Assembly: GCA_965140705.1 (NCBI GenBank) | Contig: OZ223300.1 | Span: forward strand, 128,001 to 192,000 | Origin: an uncultured Arcobacter sp. | Lineage (GTDB): Bacteria; Campylobacterota; Campylobacteria; Campylobacterales; Arcobacteraceae | DNA: 64,000 nucleotides | Reading direction: 5' to 3' | Part shown: in pieces, positions 12,001-18,000 of the stretch | Position numbering within the stretch: position 1 is the first letter of the stretch | Layout: each line of letters opens with the position of its first letter | Position numbers: made by a program

Positions 12001-15000
12001 CATATTTTACTACAAAACATGAATCCAATGGAACAGGGCTTGGTTTATATATGGCTTATTCAATTGTTAAAAAAATAGGAGGGGAAATAAGTGTTTCAAA
12101 TGTAGAATATGAATATGAAAGTAAAAAATGCAAAGGGGCAAATTTTTTAGTTTCTTTAAAGTGTGTTGGGTAAAACAAAGACCTAAAGTCTTTGTTTTAG
12201 ATTTAAAATTGTCCTACATTTGCATAAGATTCTCTATCTTCCATTGGAATGTCAGCAATAAACTTTTGCTCTTTTACACTTGGTAACATAAGACCTTTAG
12301 TTTTATGTTCTCTAATTTTATAAGTACCTTCGTCATTACCCATTGCATAATATTCAGAGAACTCTGCAGTATAAGGCATATCCCATACAATTGCACCTTC
12401 AGTTGGACAGGCTTCTGCACATCTTGGTTTATCTGCATGATCAACACACTCAACACATGATTCTGGTTTTACATAAAAAACATCTGTAGGATTTTTATCA
12501 TGACCATCTTCTAAAATCGCTGCAACTGGACACTCTGGAGCACATGCTTCACAACTTATACACTCTTCTGTAATTCTAACTGCCATTGTCTTTCCTTATA
12601 TAAAAATATAAAAAAGACAATGCAAATAGTGTTCCATTATTAAGCTATTTATCTAAGTGGTAATACCAAGCGTTTAAATTACTTCGTTTAAATTTTTTAT
12701 TTGTGTAAAATTCTTTGGCTGTTGTATTGTCTTCATCACAAACTAATTGTAGTCTTGTTAATGAGTGCTTTTTGGCATAATCTTTGATGTACTCAAGAAG
12801 ATAAGTTCCAACACCTAAATCTCTGTAATCATCTTTGATGATGAAGTCTTCTATTAGTCCAACTTTTGTTCCCATAACAGTTGAAATAATTTTCTGAATA
12901 GTAATCATTCCTATAACTTCATTTTCAAATTTTACAAGGATAACTTCGGAACTTCTATTATTTATTAGTAGAATTATCCCTTCTTCATGTTTTTTTTCAT
13001 TGAAAGCAAAATCTTGTTCAATAGTAAACAAAGATTGAAGAAGGTTAATTAGGTCTGGAAGGTCGTCATTTGTTGCTTTACATATTTGTAAATTATTTTT
13101 TAATATCATTATAGTTTATCTCCTTAGAGACCTTCTTTTCCGTACCTTTCACATATATTAAATCTACATCTTTTTCATTACATATATACTCTTGTGTAAT
13201 TACGCACGAACCCAAGTTCTCTTCTGATGGTATTGTATATTGTAATGGTAGCATAAGTTTTTCTATTATACCCCTTAATCCTCTAGCTCCTACGTCTTTT
13301 TCATAAGCGATATTTGCAATTTCATCTAGGGCTTTATCATCAAATTTTAAATCAACCCCATCAAGCTCAAAAAGTATTTCATACTGTTTTGTAATAGCAT
13401 TTTTAGGTTCTTTTAGAACTCTTATTAAATCCTCTTTTGAGAGTTTATTAAGTTCTGCAATTACTGGAATTCTACCAATAAATTCAGGAATTAATCCAAA
13501 AGAGATAAGCTCTTTTGCTTCGATATCTTTTTTATCTTTTTGTTTATTATCTTTGTTTAAAAATCCCATTACTGTAGATTTTTCTTTGTTTTCATCTTTT
13601 CTTAATCCAACAAAAGCACCACCACAGATAAATAAAACATGGGTAGTATCAAATAAAATAGTCTCAGCAGATGAGTTTTTTCTACTTCCTTTTACAGGAA
13701 CATAAACTTCAGCACCCTCTAATATTTTTAATAAACCTTGTTGAACACCCTCCCCACTTACATCTCTTCCACTTGTGGCACTTTCACTTTTATTGGCTAT
13801 TTTGTCTATTTCATCTATATAAACAATACCTCTTTTTGCTTTTTCCAAATCAAAATCAGCAGCTGCTAAAAGTCTTGAAAGTATAGACTCAACATCTTCA
13901 CCCACATATCCAGCTTCAGTTAAAGCTGTTGCATCTGCAACTGCAAAGGGTACATCCATGATTTTAGCAAGTGATTTTGCAAGAAGAGTTTTACCACTTC
14001 CTGTTGGACCTATTAGCATGATATTTGATTTTTCAAGTTCTACATTTTTGATAATTGGTTTATCGATTCTTTTGTAGTGGTTATAAAGGGCAACTGCTAA
14101 AACCTTTTTAGCATCATCTTGACCTATTACATAATCATCAAGATGTTCTTTTATTTTAATAGGAACACTAAGACCTTTTTGGAACTCTTTTTTTGCTTCT
14201 TTTATAGTCTCTTTTTCCATAACATTTGAACACATAGAGATACATTCATCACAAATATTTGCACTTTCACTTGAAAATATTTTTTTAACTTCTTTTATCT
14301 CTTTCCCACAAAAATCACATGATTTTAATTTATTAGGCATAGTTATTTATAAACTCATTTAAACTCAAATTTAAATTTTCTAAATTATGAGTTTTGATAA
14401 ATTTATCCTCTTTTTTTGTTAGTTCAGGTTTATTAAATATAGCAAACCCACCTTTTAAATCCATTGTTATTTCATTTGCAACCATTCTAAAAGTATCTTT
14501 TGAAAAATCAACACCCATAAAAAGATACTCTTTGTCTTTTCTAAAATCTTTTAAAATAGGAGGCATAGCAAATCCACCCATAGCTTCTGTTAACCAATCT
14601 ACAAAATCAGCATCAGAGATGATAAAATTCATCTCAGGTTTTGTTGAGCCCATAGGTTTAAATAAAATTGGCAAATCTAAAGTTAAAGCCTCTTTTTCTA
14701 CTTTTTCATAGGCATTTCTACTAAGATCAAATCTATAAATAATAAATCTATCATAATCAGCAGTTATTCTAGAAACTCCAGTTATTAAGAAGTGATTTTC
14801 ATCACTATAAATCTTTTGTAAGCTATCATCTAGATTTGTATCAATTACATATTTAGGTTTGATTTGTTTTAGCCAAGTATAAACTTTAGGTAAATCATAC
14901 TCTTTAGAACTATAGATATGGTTTGTCATTTGAATAATAAACTCTCTACCTTTTCTTTGCTCTAAACTCATAGCGGCTCTTGAGTATTCATACATAAGTC

Positions 15001-18000
15001 TTGGGCTCATAGCTCTTCCATTATTTAGGGCTAAAATCATCGAATCACTATCAAATGGAAGTTTTGTTCCATCTTTTGCAATACTATCTTCGAATATACC
15101 CATTCCTAAAAATGGGACGAGAGTACCATTTTTTAATTTTTCTACTATATTTTCCATTAAATATCCTATAGTAATATTTAATTAACTACTATGCAAAAAC
15201 CGTTCCTTAATATTATGTTTTAAATTAACTATTTTGCCACATTTTCGCCACAGCATTAATTTATAATTTTATTAATTTATTAAACTAATAAATTGATTTA
15301 TTAATTTTTAAGTTATTAAATTAATTTTAAATCTAGGAGAATAAAATGAAAAATGGAATGAATAGACGTACATTTTTAAAATCAAGTACAGTTGCTGCAG
15401 CTGCAGTTGTTCAAGCTCAGGCAATACCTCTAGTTGGTGAAAGTTTATTTAATGATAAACCTTTAGAGATGAGTGCTTCTCACTTTGGTGCATTTAGAGC
15501 AAGAGTAAGAAACTCTAGATTTGAAGGTGTGGAAGCATTTAAAGGTGATGAATATCCATCATCTTTAATAAACGCACTTCCAGCAAGAACATATGCAGAA
15601 GATAGAATTCTTTACCCGTGTGTTAGAGAAGATTATCTTAAAAATGGATATAAAAGCGATAAATCAAAAAGAGGTAAAGATAAATTTGTTCGTGTTTCAT
15701 GGGAAAAAGCTTTAGAGTTAGTTGCTAACGAAATTAAAAGAACACATAAAGATTATGGTGATGAAGCCATTTATGGAGGAAGTTATGGTTGGTATTGTGT
15801 AGGATCATTAAATAATCCTCAAGCACTTTTAGGAAGAATGCTTCACTTAACAGGTGGATACACTTCAAGAACTTGTACATATTCAACACATGCTATTAGA
15901 CAAATTACTCCTTATATTACAGGTACTGATGAATCAACAGCTAAACCAACGGCGTATCCAGTATTAATTGAAAACTCTGAATGTATTGTATTTTGGGGTG
16001 CTGATATTGTAAATACAAATCAAATCGCATGGGGTGTTCCAGATCATAAAACATATACTTATTTAAAAGAGTTAAAAGCACAAGCTAAAAAAAGAGGATT
16101 GAAATTTTATATAATTGACCCTGTTTATAATAATACTGGTATGTATTTTGATGCAGAGCATATTAAAATTAATCCTACAACTGATGTCGCTTTGATGCTT
16201 GGAATAGCTCATTATCTTTATACTAATAAATTACATGATGCAAAATTTTTAAGAAAATGTACTTATGGATTTAAACAATTTTCACAATATTTAATTGGTA
16301 AAACTGAAGATAAAATTGAAAAAACTCCAGAATGGGCATCTAAAATTTGTGGTGTTGATGCTGAAGTAATTAAAATGTTAGCAAAAGAATTTGCTTCAAA
16401 AAGAACAATGTTAATGGGAGGATGGTCTACACAAAGAGCTGATCATGGGGAACAACCAAACTGGATGTTAATTACACTTGCAAGTATGTTAGGACAAATT
16501 GGACTTCCTGGTGGAGGTTATGGATGTAGTTACCACTATTCAGGTGGAGGGGTTCCAATGCCTGCAGCTGCAACGGGGAATGCACAAAGTGAAAAATCAC
16601 TCAATGGATCAACGGGGTTAAAAGCAGAAAAAGGTGCATTATCTGCATCTCCAGGACTTGGTGGTATAGGTAGAAAAACAAAAATTGATGGACCATGGAG
16701 AGATAATAAAGTTCCTGTGATTCCAGTATCACGAATTGTTGAGTGTTTAGAAAACCCAGGAAAAGAGATTAAGTTTGATGGTAACATCATTAAATATCCA
16801 GACATCAGAATGGCATATTGGGCTGGAGGAAATCCGTTCCACCATCACCAAGATAGAAATAGAATGATTAAAGCATATAGAAAATTAGAAACATTTGTTG
16901 TACAAGATGCTTTCTGGACTGCAACTGCTAGAATGGGAGATATTATTCTTCCTTCAACACTAGAGCAAGAAAGAAATGATATTACAAAATCTCATTCAAA
17001 TAGTTTTATTTTTGCTATGAAACAAGTATCTAAACCATATGGAGATGTGAAAGATGATTTTGATATTTTTACTGGAATATTAGAACATTTCTCTAAAGAA
17101 CATGTTTATGCTTTCACAGAAGGTAGGGATAAAATGGGATGGATTAAACACTTCTATGAAGTTTCTTATAAAAAAGCACAAAATTCTGGAGTAAAAATGC
17201 CTACTTTTGATGAATTTTGGAAAAAAGGATTTTGTGAATTTAAAACTCCAGAAATCGCAAAAAAATACATAAGATTTGAAGAGTTTAGAAAAAATCCAAT
17301 TATTAATAGACTTGGAACTCCATCTGGGAAAATTGAAATTTTTTCAAAAAAAGTGGCAAGTTATGGTTATGATGATTGTAAAGGACATCCTATGTGGTTT
17401 GAACCAATGGAATGGGTAGGTTCTAAAAAAGCTGAAAAATATCCATTGAATTTAATTACACCACATCCTAAATATAGACTTCACTCTCAATTAAATAATA
17501 CTTGGATTAGACATCTTGAAGAGGTAAATGGAAGAGAACCTATTTGGCTAAATACTGATGATGCAAAAAAACGTGGTATAAAAAATGGTGATGTTGTAAA
17601 AGTATTTAATGGACGAGGACAAATTTTAGGAGGTGCAGTAGTAACTGAATTTGTAAAAAAAGGTGCAGTACGAATGCAAGAGGGAGCTTGGTATGATCCA
17701 ACTGAAGCTGGAGAACCTGGTACTTTATGTAGACATGGTGATGTTAATGTATTAACTCCCGATAAAGGAACTTCAAGTCTTGCTCAAGGAAATCAAGCAA
17801 CTGCACTTGTTGAAATTGAAAAATTTGATGGAGAGGTTCCTGCTATTGGAATATTTAAAGCTCCAGAAATTAAAGGAGCTTAGATGACATTTTTAAGAAA
17901 AATATTATTGGTTTTAGTATCAGTTGTTACACTTAGTGTAGCTGCTGATACGGCATATTTATCTCAAAACACAAAATTGTATAAAGATGTAAATAAAAAA

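What a model noticed while it worked through the whole genome (the two positions that open the first line are those of the whole stretch)
13093..15157. A second ClpX unfoldase in an operon with a stand-alone defence-type SIR2 NADase fold, conserved across marine Campyloba [...]
Besides the canonical clpX (g02839, next to mreB) the genome has a full-length clpX paralog (g00113: zinc ribbon, GYVG pore loop, MGF ClpP-docking loop) whose start overlaps the stop of a 274-aa SIR2_2 protein (g00114) that folds like the anti-phage NADases ThsA, KomC and DSR2. Unlike defence genes this SIR2 is 66-94% identical from Arcobacter to Sulfurimonas and the SIR2-ClpX adjacency is almost confined to this order; I read the pair as a housekeeping-grade NAD-cleaving (or ADP-ribosylating) switch held in check or activated by a dedicated ClpX2(P) unfoldase. 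That would be a first functional partner for a ClpX paralog and a new mode of SIR2 control.
Evidence so far: g00114 C1:142333-143157(-), g00113 C1:141093-142340(-), 8-bp overlap. SIR2_2 next to zf-C4_ClpX: 48 genomes of 199,900, 39 of them among 1,515 Campylobacterales (floors; call 109). g00113 is 57% identical to a Swiss-Prot ClpX and 48% to g02839; motifs read in call 109. 1,331 homologs of g00114 at E<=1e-3; the best 120 are 257-278 aa, 66-94% id, named only 'SIR2 family' or 'hypothetical', from Arcobacteraceae and Sulfurimonas; 22-row alignment with 116 invariant columns incl. N79 H80, D106 T107, H122. AF2 model pLDDT 76, pTM 0.80; Foldseek PDB: ThsA 6lhx E 3e-8, KomC 8zsf/9xvc TM 0.59-0.60, DSR2, Avs5, SIR2/HerA. 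PADLOC: no model hits g00114. No paper found for ClpX + SIR2 + paralog/Campyloba [...]
(Added by a program. Inside this text positions count along the whole contig: contig position 128,001 is position 1 of the stretch shown here. "Call 12" and the like, gene names such as g00115 and contig names such as C1 are that model's own, and its searches are not shown. The text may have been shortened before it was handed on; [...] marks where a part breaks off. The agent that wrote the report below was given it as the finding of a first reader that could run no searches.)

Follow-up and report, generated by a model that had tools for sequence, protein, structure and literature searches.

The report
Nif-island SIR2-like / ClpX2 operon
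The SIR2-like gene and the second clpX are real and co-transcribed, but they are accessory genes of this bacterium's nitrogen-fixation island rather than a housekeeping or anti-phage NAD switch, and the SIR2-like protein lacks the catalytic histidine that such enzymes normally need.

Summary

The interpretation misses the context: the window is a nif island (nifHDK, nifEN, nifA, rpoN).
- A sigma-54-type promoter of the same sequence type as those before nifH, nifE, nifN and nifX lies 35 bp upstream of SIR2.
- In 401 sampled Campylobacterales genomes, the SIR2 ortholog occurs in 88, and 82 of these also have nifD.
- The same stand-alone family lies beside nif genes in 62 of 80 Pseudomonadota loci and on rhizobial symbiosis plasmids.
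- nif-island "SIR2 family proteins" and a nif-linked clpX2 (Azotobacter, NifB/NifEN turnover) are already in print.

Three points appear new:
- The canonical catalytic His is Met/Leu in 110 of 111 family members, so a classical NADase or deacetylase is unlikely.
- Campylobacterales ClpX2 forms its own clade with altered RKH loops, and some genomes carry a dedicated ClpP2.
- SIR2 does not need ClpX2: 24 of 88 genomes have SIR2 without it.

Direct SIR2-ClpX2 contact remains untested.

The parts
15192..15207 (-). sigma-54-type promoter AGGAAC-N5-TTGCA, 35 bp upstream of the SIR2-like start codon
   Evidence: The same motif type lies 30-97 bp upstream of nifH, nifX, nifN, nifE, the AKR..nifA operon and the ferredoxin gene. 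All 7 intergenic minus-strand hits with a downstream gene precede nif-island operons. Orthologous loci: 13 of 42 Campylobacterales loci have such a site 25-39 bp upstream of SIR2, against 4 of 840 shuffles.
14333..15157 (-). nif-associated SIR2-like protein, 274 aa, stand-alone SIR2_2 fold, with M169 in place of the catalytic His
13093..14340 (-). ClpX2, 415 aa: zinc ribbon, Walker A/B, GYVG pore loop, MGF ClpP-docking loop, and an RKH loop changed to RKN
12645..13109 (-). GNAT acetyltransferase, 154 aa, overlapping the clpX2 stop by 17 bp; third gene of the operon in this genus
   Evidence: Acetyltransf_1, 8e-17. The same order is seen in L054 and L050.
12621..12636 (-). second sigma-54-type promoter, TGGAAC-N5-TTGCA, in front of the ferredoxin gene
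12203..12586 (-). 2x[4Fe-4S] ferredoxin (YfhL type), the conserved downstream neighbour
   Evidence: A ferredoxin of this BLAST cluster occurs in 8 of 20 fetched loci.
15346..21321 (+). TorA-like and TorC-like reductase with a histidine kinase and a response regulator; lies between the F3 gene and SIR2 in this genome only
   Evidence: Sister genome G106 (L054) has F3 followed directly by SIR2.
21758..23816 (-). NifA (22254-23816) and the 170-aa F3 protein (21758-22270), the usual upstream neighbours of SIR2 in Campylobacterales
   Evidence: TIGR01817: 517 bits, cut-off 529..
37175..41635 (-). nifH, nifD and nifK, the core of the island to which the operon belongs

Best explanation
SIR2-like, ClpX2 and GNAT form an accessory operon of the nitrogen-fixation (nif) regulon, transcribed from its own sigma-54-type promoter.

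ClpX2 is a nif-specialised ClpX. It still docks on ClpP, either the single housekeeping ClpP here or a dedicated ClpP2 encoded between SIR2 and clpX2 in other families. It has rebuilt substrate-selecting RKH loops. By analogy with Azotobacter ClpX2, it most likely adjusts the levels of Nif maturation proteins such as NifB and NifEN.

The SIR2-like protein belongs to a widespread, stand-alone family that accompanies nif genes in Campylobacterales and Pseudomonadota. It keeps the dinucleotide-binding elements of SIR2 (the GxG loop, Asn108, Asp110) but has Met or Leu where the catalytic His should be. I therefore infer that it binds NAD(H) or a related nucleotide without cleaving it in the classical way, and that it acts on nitrogenase maturation or regulation.

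The two proteins are co-expressed, but the SIR2-like protein does not depend on ClpX2.

Shown: the context, the co-occurrence, the promoter motif, the motifs and the fold. Inferred: nif-dependent expression in this organism, the ClpX2 substrates, and nucleotide binding without hydrolysis.
For: CONTEXT
- The window holds nifHDK, nifEN, nifA, nifX, nifW, rpoN and mod genes.
- In 20 fetched loci, the recurring neighbours are a NifA-like gene, F3, a ferredoxin, and NifB-like and NifV-like genes.

PROMOTER
-.
- No sigma-70 enrichment and no minus-strand terminator lie inside the operon.

CO-OCCURRENCE IN 401 SAMPLED GENOMES
- SIR2 and nifD together 82; SIR2 only 6; nifD only 8; neither 305.
- 4 of the 5 re-tested 'SIR2 only' genomes do have nitrogenase-family genes.
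- ClpX2-type genes occur in 67 genomes, 64 of them with nifD.

BEYOND THE ORDER
- 62 of 80 Pseudomonadota loci have nif genes within 7 kb, and 50 of 80 have nifH.
- Rhizobium tropici pSym reads nifA-nifB-fdx-nifZ-nifT-SIR2.

LITERATURE (passages only)
- Rcc03262 was not detected in a nifA mutant proteome (PMC6925177).
- ZMO1821 rises under N2 fixation (PMC8600466).
- PST_1325 lies beside nifH (PMC11332353).
- A SIR2-2 protein lies beside nifH in 23 of 25 Thalassolituus genomes (bioRxiv 10.64898/2026.08.28.747955).

ClpX2
- All 37 rows (32 genomes) keep the zinc ribbon, GYVG, the (M/V/L)GF loop and Walker B.
- 0 of 27 ClpX2 rows have the His of the RKH loop, against 20 of 20 canonical ClpX rows.
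- ClpP2 (PF00574, 233-240 bits) lies between SIR2 and clpX2 in 3 of 3 loci scanned.
- Nif-linked second ClpX genes follow nifM in two Marinobacterium genomes, and in a deltaproteobacterial MAG, where clpX2 abuts SIR2.

HIS LOSS
-.
Against:
- The canonical NifA site TGT-N10-ACA was absent upstream of all 7 promoters.
- The ClpX2 substrates are inferred from another phylum. My quick tree places the Campylobacterales ClpX2 apart from the proteobacterial nif-linked ClpX2, so the analogy is not orthology.
- Loss of the canonical His does not prove inactivity. H122 is conserved in 108 of 111 members, and E66, D182, D184, E191 and R224 are invariant, so a rebuilt active site is possible.
- One of the two profile alignments behind the His assignment has low probability (10%); the other has 95%.
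- The tight coupling favours a closer link between the two proteins than mere co-regulation. There is an 8-bp overlap; 57 of 401 genomes have the two genes clustered; and the adjacency recurs in reverse order in one deltaproteobacterial MAG.
Confidence: 0.6

Rival explanations
1. Direct coupling. The SIR2-like protein is an adaptor, an anti-adaptor, an allosteric regulator or a dedicated substrate of ClpX2(P). It would tie the NAD(H) or energy state to the degradation of Nif proteins.
For: - There is an 8-bp overlap.
- SIR2 and ClpX2 are directly adjacent in 38 of the 401 sampled genomes, and separated only by a ClpP-sized gap in 19 more, across several families.
- The order SIR2-clpP2-clpX2 behaves as one unit.
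- The adjacency recurs independently, as clpX2-SIR2, in a deltaproteobacterial MAG.
- The altered RKH loops suggest new substrate rules.
Against: - 24 of 88 SIR2-positive genomes have no ClpX2 (19 of them in one genus), yet their SIR2 is as well conserved (61-64% identity).
- 6 genomes have both genes unlinked.
- 79 of 80 Pseudomonadota loci lack a ClpX beside SIR2.
- Thiocapsa and Zoogloea have SIR2 but only one ClpX.
- 3 genomes have ClpX2 in the nif region without SIR2.
- No contact has been shown.
Confidence: 0.2
2. Non-canonical enzyme. The SIR2-like protein still uses NAD+, through other residues (H122, E66, D182/D184, E191). It would act, for example, as an ADP-ribosyltransferase on nitrogenase proteins, as a functional analogue of DraT, or as an NADase.
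For: - The GxG loop, N108 (110 of 111) and D110 (111 of 111) are kept.
- A set of invariant acidic and basic residues and H122 (108 of 111) look like an active site.
- DraT (PF07357) was not found in this genome.
Against: - The His needed in all tested SIR2 NADases and deacylases is absent. The PDB entry titles name the mutants DSR2 H171A and KomC H146N.
- The DraT search had no positive control, so it is inconclusive.
- Rhodobacter capsulatus has a nif-cluster SIR2 protein and, from recall, also DraT and DraG. There is therefore no clear complementarity.
- In the more distant rhizobial-type branch, N108 and H122 are not kept.
Confidence: 0.1
3. Reversible acylation pair. The SIR2-like protein is a lysine deacylase and the GNAT the matching acetyltransferase, together regulating Nif proteins. 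This is the guess made in two papers.
For: - GNAT is in the same operon here and in G106 and G285.
- A second GNAT family sits beside the NifV-like and NifB-like genes in 6 of 20 loci.
- Papers propose deacetylation (PMC8600466; bioRxiv 10.64898/2026.08.28.747955).
Against: - The catalytic His is missing.
- Pfam finds only SIR2_2, not the sirtuin family.
- A GNAT directly follows clpX2 only in the window and in 2 of the 16 ClpX2-bearing loci fetched.
- No GNAT lies near SIR2 in 79 of 80 Pseudomonadota loci.
Confidence: 0.07
4. Anti-phage defence module of the SIR2 type.
For: - The fold is closest to DSR2, KomC, ThsA and Avs5.
- One locus (G388) has three extra genes inserted between SIR2 and clpX2.
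Against: - PADLOC gives no hit, while the control ThsA-like ORF scores 2e-33.
- The gene has a nif context and a sigma-54-type promoter.
- Identity falls smoothly with taxonomic distance.
- The catalytic His is absent.
- The distant fused forms (STAND-SIR2, SIR2-TIR) score 92-96 bits on SIR2_2, against 40 bits here.
Confidence: 0.02

Closest known systems
Azotobacter vinelandii clpX2 (major nif cluster, nifUSV-cysE1-nifWZM-clpX2; Martinez-Noel et al. 2011, Mol Microbiol 79:1182)
   Same: Both are a second ClpX encoded in the nif region. The paper's title says ClpX2 regulates NifB and NifEN levels (title seen; cluster layout in PMC9866876). I found the same layout, nifM followed by clpX2, in two Marinobacterium genomes. 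The RKH loops are also altered there.
   Different: The Campylobacterales ClpX2 forms its own clade, away from those proteins in a quick tree. It follows a SIR2-like gene, not nifM. In some families it comes with its own ClpP2. I could not read the paper itself.
nif-island 'SIR2 family proteins' of Pseudomonadota (Rcc03262, ZMO1821, PST_1325, Thalassolituus SIR2-2, rhizobial pSym genes)
   Same: This is the same stand-alone family: 36-49% identity for the nifH-adjacent type and about 27% for the rhizobial type. It has the same nif neighbourhood. Homologs are reported as NifA-dependent or induced under N2 fixation.
   Different: There the gene usually lies divergent from nifHDK, or after nifT, with no ClpX. 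Here it heads an operon with clpX2. The papers call it a likely deacetylase. The missing catalytic His found here argues against that.
Defence SIR2 NADases (ThsA, DSR2, KomC, Avs5, SIR2-HerA)
   Same: The SIR2_2 fold is shared (TM 0.57-0.65), as are the GxG loop and the TNxD-type Asn and Asp.
   Different: Identity is only 12-17%. There is no sensor or partner domain and no PADLOC hit. His is replaced by Met or Leu. The context is nif, not a defence island.
DraT/DraG control of nitrogenase Fe protein (recalled knowledge)
   Same: It is an NAD-linked regulator encoded with nif genes, so it could be a functional analogy.
   Different: The fold is different (DraT is not a SIR2). No evidence of ADP-ribosylation exists here. 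DraT was not found in this genome, but that search lacked a positive control.
Canonical ClpXP
   Same: The domain set is complete, the (M/V/L)GF docking loop is kept, and NCBIfam ClpX equivalog scores are above cut-off.
   Different: Identity to the housekeeping copy is 48%. The RKH loop reads GSRKN(S/A) instead of GGRKHP.

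Membership tests
ClpX (AAA+ unfoldase of ClpXP) | N-terminal C4 zinc ribbon | tested here: met
   PF06689, 38.2 bits, cut-off 27. The CxxC...CxxC pattern is present in 37 of 37 rows.
ClpX (AAA+ unfoldase of ClpXP) | Whole-protein score above the curated equivalog cut-off | tested here: met
   NF003745 scores 549 bits (cut-off 359) and TIGR00382 scores 520 bits (cut-off 371).
ClpX (AAA+ unfoldase of ClpXP) | Walker A and B motifs and the GYVG pore-1 loop | tested here: met
   GYVG and Walker B are present in 37 of 37 rows. My Walker A pattern matched 35 of 37; the two misses are one genome fetched twice.
ClpX (AAA+ unfoldase of ClpXP) | IGF-type tripeptide loop for docking on ClpP | tested here: met
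   MGF here, and (M/V/L)GF in 37 of 37 rows.
ClpX (AAA+ unfoldase of ClpXP) | RKH loop (GGRKHP) at the pore entrance | tested here: not met
   The loop reads GSRKNSS here. 0 of 27 ClpX2 rows have the His, against 20 of 20 canonical rows. The role of the loop in substrate choice is recalled, not tested.
SIR2_2 (PF13289) / SIR2 fold | Pfam score above the gathering threshold, and the fold | tested here: met
   39.9 bits, cut-off 24.5. Model pLDDT is 95.3. Foldseek gives DSR2, KomC and ThsA at E 5e-9 to 6e-8.
SIR2_2 (PF13289) / SIR2 fold | Gly-rich loop after strand 1, and the Asn and Asp of the TNxD motif | tested here: met
   G18 is present in 111 of 111, G20 in 103 of 111, N108 in 110 of 111 and D110 in 111 of 111. 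The motif aligns with TTNYD of KomC and of this genome's own SIR2_2 proteins.
SIR2_2 (PF13289) / SIR2 fold | Catalytic His of the (K/H)xHG strand | tested here: not met
   M169 aligns with the His of HIHG (hhalign probability 95%) and of KYHG (probability 10%). That column is Met or Leu in 110 of 111 members and His in 1.
Sirtuin deacylases (CobB type) | Match to the sirtuin family model | tested here: not met
   The Pfam scan returned only SIR2_2. No NCBIfam family matched.
Known anti-phage SIR2 systems (Thoeris, DSR, Kongming, SIR2-HerA, Avs5) | Match to a PADLOC model, and a partner gene or domain | tested here: not met
   PADLOC gave no hit for SIR2, the GNAT or F3. ClpX2 gave only weak generic AAA hits. 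The control ThsA-like ORF scored 2e-33. The neighbours are nif genes.
nif regulon accessory genes | Location in a nif island and co-occurrence with nitrogenase genes | tested here: met
   82 of 88 SIR2-positive genomes and 64 of 67 ClpX2-positive genomes have nifD. 62 of 80 Pseudomonadota loci have nif genes.
nif regulon accessory genes | sigma-54-type promoter like those of the nif operons | tested here: met
   AGGAAC-N5-TTGCA at 15192-15207. In orthologous loci 13 of 42 have such a site, against 4 of 840 shuffles.
nif regulon accessory genes | NifA- and nitrogen-dependent expression | not testable with these tools
Only homologs in other species are reported as NifA-dependent or induced. No TGT-N10-ACA site was found.
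GNAT acetyltransferase | Pfam Acetyltransf_1 above cut-off | tested here: met
   62 bits, cut-off 20.7.

The most novel reading that the evidence does not exclude
The His-less SIR2-like protein is a nucleotide-sensing (NAD+/NADH or ADP-ribose) specificity factor of a nif-dedicated ClpX2P2 protease. It would mark or deliver nitrogenase maturation or structural proteins for degradation according to the redox or energy state. This would be a new post-translational control of nitrogen fixation in bacteria that lack DraT/DraG, and the first non-catalytic sensor use of a SIR2 fold.
Probability: 0.12. Interest if true: 0.8.

Novelty: new variant of a known kind. Interest (0 to 1): 0.45.

Why it matters
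A stand-alone SIR2-like gene accompanies nitrogenase genes in hundreds of species across two phyla. It appears in papers only as a 'SIR2 family protein, maybe a deacetylase'. Its canonical catalytic histidine is systematically replaced, which changes what should be tested: binding or sensing rather than deacetylation.

Campylobacterales are important marine and sediment diazotrophs. They carry their own nif-linked ClpX2, some with a ClpP2, and these have rebuilt substrate-recognition loops. Dedicated proteolysis of Nif proteins may therefore have been recruited more than once. Both points bear on attempts to move nif clusters into other hosts, where accessory genes of unknown role are usually dropped.

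For this scan, the lesson is that the 'housekeeping SIR2 switch' has an ordinary explanation in its context.

Tried and rejected
- Complex prediction for SIR2 with ClpX2 (alignments A5 and A4) was not available. Contact therefore remains untested.
- The Martinez-Noel 2011 paper is not held. I saw only its title and the statements of citing papers.
- NifA site TGT-N10-ACA: 0 hits within 250 bp upstream of the 7 sigma-54-type promoters. The background is about 0.09 per 250 bp. This says little, because the binding site of Campylobacterales NifA is unknown.
- DraT (PF07357) was not found in the genome, but the control rang in no genome, so the result is inconclusive.
- ClpX tree: only the quick tree finished. 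Three rows (L168 and the two Marinobacterium 'canonical' rows) were wrong ORFs picked by my longest-ORF rule and must be ignored. Nine near-duplicate rows were dropped beforehand. The placement of ClpX2 next to 3 canonical proteobacterial ClpX (support 89) is tentative.
- The profile search of PDB sequences gave only weak partial hits (best 2.8e-6, 'USG protein'; KomC 2e-4) and did not cover the His region.
- The ESM Atlas returned only clusters labelled SIR2-like.
- Fused forms: the length-unrestricted representative search found no fused protein among strong hits. The longest with E<=1e-30 is 353 aa. STAND-SIR2 and SIR2-TIR proteins appear only at E of about 1e-4 to 1e-7 and are canonical SIR2_2.
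- The sigma-70 promoter scan showed no enrichment: 15 found against 17.8 expected.

Full report
1. WHAT IS THERE

The window is contig 1, positions 128001-192000, of its genome. The finding's start and end are correct. Its note of a 96000 offset is not.

Three ORFs on the minus strand overlap head to tail:
- A 274-aa SIR2_2 protein at 14333-15157 (PF13289, 39.9 bits, cut-off 24.5).
- A 415-aa ClpX at 13093-14340. Pfam gives zf-C4_ClpX, AAA_2 and ClpB_D2-small. NCBIfam ClpX equivalogs score 549 and 520 bits, both above cut-off.

The overlaps are 8 bp and 17 bp. After a 58-bp gap comes a 2x[4Fe-4S] ferredoxin at 12203-12586.

The genome has a second, canonical clpX behind an lpxA-like gene. It has one clpP, between tig and def. 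It also has two other SIR2_2 proteins of ordinary defence type. ClpX2 is 48% identical to the canonical copy.

The window is a nitrogen-fixation island. It holds:
- nifH, nifD and nifK at 37175-41635.
- nifN at 54825-56120 and nifE at 58777-60123.
- NifA at 22254-23816 and RpoN at 47461-48708.
- NifX, NifW, flavodoxin, several Mod and Mop genes, and a NiFe hydrogenase.

In 20 loci fetched around orthologs, the recurring order is: aldo-keto reductase, FAD protein, a 69-81-aa ORF, a NifA-like gene, a 170-200-aa protein (F3), SIR2, an optional ClpP2, ClpX2, an optional GNAT, and a ferredoxin. NifB-like and NifV-like genes often lie nearby. I named NifB and NifV from reading the sequences; NifV was confirmed indirectly.

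In the sister genome G106, F3 is followed directly by SIR2. In this genome a TorA/TorC-like reductase with its two-component system (15346-21321) lies between them.

3. PROMOTER

A scan for the sigma-54 consensus gave seven intergenic minus-strand sites of the form (A/T)GGAAC-N5-TTGCA. Each lies 30-97 bp upstream of a gene: nifH, nifX, nifN, nifE, the reductase-to-nifA operon, SIR2 (15192-15207, 35 bp before the ATG) and the ferredoxin (12621-12636).

In orthologous loci, 13 of 42 Campylobacterales SIR2 genes have such a site 25-39 bp upstream. Most of the others overlap the upstream gene. In the Pseudomonadota set, 9 of 68 have one. Shuffled controls gave 4 of 840 and 13 of 1360.

No TGT-N10-ACA site was found. 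There is no sigma-70 enrichment and no minus-strand terminator inside the operon.

4. CO-OCCURRENCE WITH NITROGENASE

I searched an even sample of 401 genomes of the order:
- The SIR2 ortholog is present in 88 genomes (35 of 96 genera).
- nifD is present in 90.
- Both are present in 82, SIR2 alone in 6, nifD alone in 8, and neither in 305.

Of the six 'SIR2 only' genomes, five were re-searched, and four of those do carry nitrogenase-family genes. The sixth is 79% complete and was not re-tested. Kin are not independent, so I give no probability.

ClpX scores are bimodal. By my reading, 67 genomes have a ClpX2-type gene. 66 of them score E<=1e-147. G137 scores 2e-123 and was counted because it abuts SIR2. 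Of the 67:
- 64 also have nifD and 64 also have SIR2.
- 38 are directly adjacent to SIR2.
- 19 are separated from it by a 614-721-bp gap.
- 1 is separated by a 3.8-kb insert (G388).
- 6 are on other contigs (all in one genus).
- 3 lie beside nif-region genes (AKR, FAD protein, 69-aa ORF and a NifA-like gene, or NifB- and NifV-like genes) without SIR2.

In the three gap loci with a called ORF, the gap holds a ClpP (PF00574, 233-240 bits). I read its catalytic Ser, His and Asp in the printed sequence.

24 SIR2-positive genomes have no ClpX2. 19 of these are in one genus, where SIR2 overlaps the end of the NifA-like gene instead (L037).

5. THE FAMILY BEYOND THE ORDER

An exhaustive search of 1.84 billion representatives found only 160 clusters (E<=1e-3). 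None of the strong hits is fused to another domain.

- tblastn found relatives at about 27% identity on 72 plasmids: Rhizobium 55, Sinorhizobium 7, Mesorhizobium 7, and others.
- On the Rhizobium tropici symbiosis plasmid the annotated order is nifA, nifB, ferredoxin, nifZ, nifT, 'SIR2 family protein'.
- Of the 80 best, all from Pseudomonadota, 62 have at least one nif gene within 7 kb and 50 have nifH, mostly as nifHDK divergent from SIR2. Only 1 has a ClpX beside SIR2.

That one locus (L087, a deltaproteobacterial MAG) reads nifU, nifS, nifV, nifW, nifM, clpX, SIR2 and then nifHDK.

Two Marinobacterium genomes have a second ClpX directly after nifV-cysE-nifW-nifM. This is the layout described for Azotobacter. 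Thiocapsa and Zoogloea have SIR2 but a single ClpX.

6. WHAT IS IN PRINT

I saw passages only, not whole papers.
- The A. vinelandii major nif cluster ends in nifWZM-clpX2 (PMC9866876).
[quoted passage not shown] 2011. I saw it in reference lists. The paper itself is not held.
- In Azoarcus, clpX and clpP are under NifA control (PMC3916325).
- nif-island SIR2 family proteins are listed for Rhodobacter capsulatus (Rcc03262, not found in the nifA1-A2 mutant proteome; PMC6925177).
- They are also listed for Zymomonas mobilis (ZMO1821, up under N2 fixation; PMC8600466; PMC8594446).
- They are also listed for Pseudomonas stutzeri A1501 (PST_1325 beside nifH; PMC11332353).
- They are also listed for Thalassolituus (23 of 25 genomes; bioRxiv 10.64898/2026.08.28.747955) and Paenirhizobium (PMC13455631).
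- Two of these papers guess at lysine deacetylation.

My searches were 'clpX2 + nitrogen fixation', 'SIR2/nif/nitrogenase/Arcobacter', 'SIR2+nifH+nifA+mutant' and 'clpX2'. They found no functional study of the SIR2-like gene and no mention of a SIR2-clpX operon.

7. THE SIR2-LIKE PROTEIN

With a 118-row alignment the model is confident: pLDDT 95.3 and pTM 0.93. It resembles the SIR2 domains of DSR2, KomC, ThsA and Avs5, with E 5e-9 to 3e-7, TM 0.56-0.65 and 12-17% identity.

Profile alignment to the genome's own canonical SIR2_2 domains gives these equivalences:
- LVPFLGMG matches the GAG loop.
- DTNLD matches TTNYD.
- FKPMG matches the strand that carries the catalytic His (HIHG, probability 95%; KYHG, probability 10%).

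Across 111 members (43 Campylobacterales, 68 Pseudomonadota), that position (M169) is Met or Leu in 110 and His in 1. N108 is kept in 110. D106, D110, E66, D182, D184, T190, E191 and R224 are kept in all 111, and H122 in 108.

In the more distant rhizobial-type branch, N108 and H122 are not kept.

PADLOC has no model for this protein.

I infer a SIR2 fold that may still hold a dinucleotide but cannot work by the usual mechanism. The invariant charged residues could be either a rebuilt active site or a partner surface. I had no coordinates to tell which.

8. ClpX2

All 37 rows examined (32 genomes) keep the zinc ribbon, GYVG, Walker B and an (M/V/L)GF loop. Docking on ClpP is therefore expected.

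The RKH loop is GGRKHP in 20 of 20 canonical ClpX rows. It is GSRK(N/S)(S/A)-like in 27 of 27 Campylobacterales ClpX2 rows, and it is different again in the 3 proteobacterial nif-linked copies.

From recall, this loop helps choose substrates in E. coli ClpX. An altered specificity is therefore plausible.

In a quick tree, the Campylobacterales ClpX2 form one clade (support 100). They are separate from the order's canonical ClpX and from the proteobacterial nif-linked copies (three wrong rows are to be ignored, and sampling was thin). This hints at an independent recruitment.

9. READING

Most likely (0.6): a nif-regulon accessory operon in which ClpX2(P) tunes Nif protein levels. The SIR2-like protein would be a non-classical, probably nucleotide-binding, nif factor that does not depend on ClpX2.

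A direct SIR2-ClpX2 partnership remains possible (0.2). The tight and repeated linkage favours it. The many genomes with one gene and not the other weaken it.

A non-canonical NAD-using enzyme (0.1), a deacylase paired with the GNAT (0.07) and defence (0.02) follow.

10. VERDICT

The context makes it far more ordinary than proposed, and parts of it are already known.

What remains of interest is a widely conserved nif gene of unknown role with a disabled SIR2 centre, and a second, separately evolved nif-dedicated ClpX, with ClpP in some families.

Noticed in passing
window 15346-21321: A TorA-like molybdoenzyme, a TorC-like cytochrome, a histidine kinase and a response regulator (plus strand) sit between the F3 gene and SIR2. 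The sister genome G106 lacks them at this place, so this looks like an insertion into the nif island.
   Followed up: partly
window 21758-22270; also L039:4382-4933, L048:4420-5025, L053:7160-7666 and others: F3 is a 170-200-aa protein with no Pfam hit that directly precedes SIR2 in 11 of 20 fetched loci. It is distantly like the redoxin/Tpx-like ORF at window 53936-54457. It lacks an obvious peroxidatic Cys and ends in a conserved Y-(T/N)-G-x-G-C-H motif.
   Followed up: partly
L039:5798-6397, L055:5945-6544, L056:5814-6398: A dedicated ClpP2 is encoded between SIR2 and clpX2 in some Campylobacterales families. 19 of 401 sampled genomes have a gap of matching size, and a NifS-like gene often follows clpX2.
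   Followed up: partly
L043:6349-9832 (genome G388): Three genes (313, 539 and 265 aa) are inserted between SIR2 and clpX2. The 539-aa protein looks like an ATPase from its printed sequence. This may be a mobile or defence insert.
   Followed up: no
G000 contig 2, 295646-296032 (L005:1201-2709), and contig 3, 199251-199652 (L004): Two canonical SIR2_2 proteins lie elsewhere in the genome. One is a 502-aa ThsA-like protein (PADLOC 2e-33). The other is a protein of over 750 aa with SIR2 at the N-terminus and repeats behind it. Both keep the catalytic His.
   Followed up: partly
window 24122-26882 and 23777-24016: An SdhA/NadB-like FAD protein (549 aa), an aldo-keto reductase (369 aa) and a small ORF (79 aa here; 69-81 aa in other loci) lie in one operon with nifA, behind a sigma-54-type promoter. 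The set is conserved in many Campylobacterales nif regions.
   Followed up: no
window 52256-54457: A SagB-type dehydrogenase-like protein, an ankyrin-repeat protein and a thiol-peroxidase-like protein are encoded between nifX and nifN.
   Followed up: no
window 40216-40575: A 119-aa ORF between nifH and nifD matches no Pfam or NCBIfam family.
   Followed up: no
L044:481-1977: A 498-aa fusion of leucine-rich repeats (my reading of the printed sequence) with a GNAT related to the window's GNAT lies near the NifV-like and NifB-like genes in genome G135.
   Followed up: no
window 12621-12636, 15192-15207, 26979-26994, 41676-41691, 51934-51949, 56150-56165, 60203-60218: The nif-island promoters share the extended form (A/T)GGAAC(A/G)(C/G)T-N3-TTGCA. 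None has the proteobacterial NifA site TGT-N10-ACA within 250 bp. The activator site in this phylum may therefore differ.
   Followed up: partly
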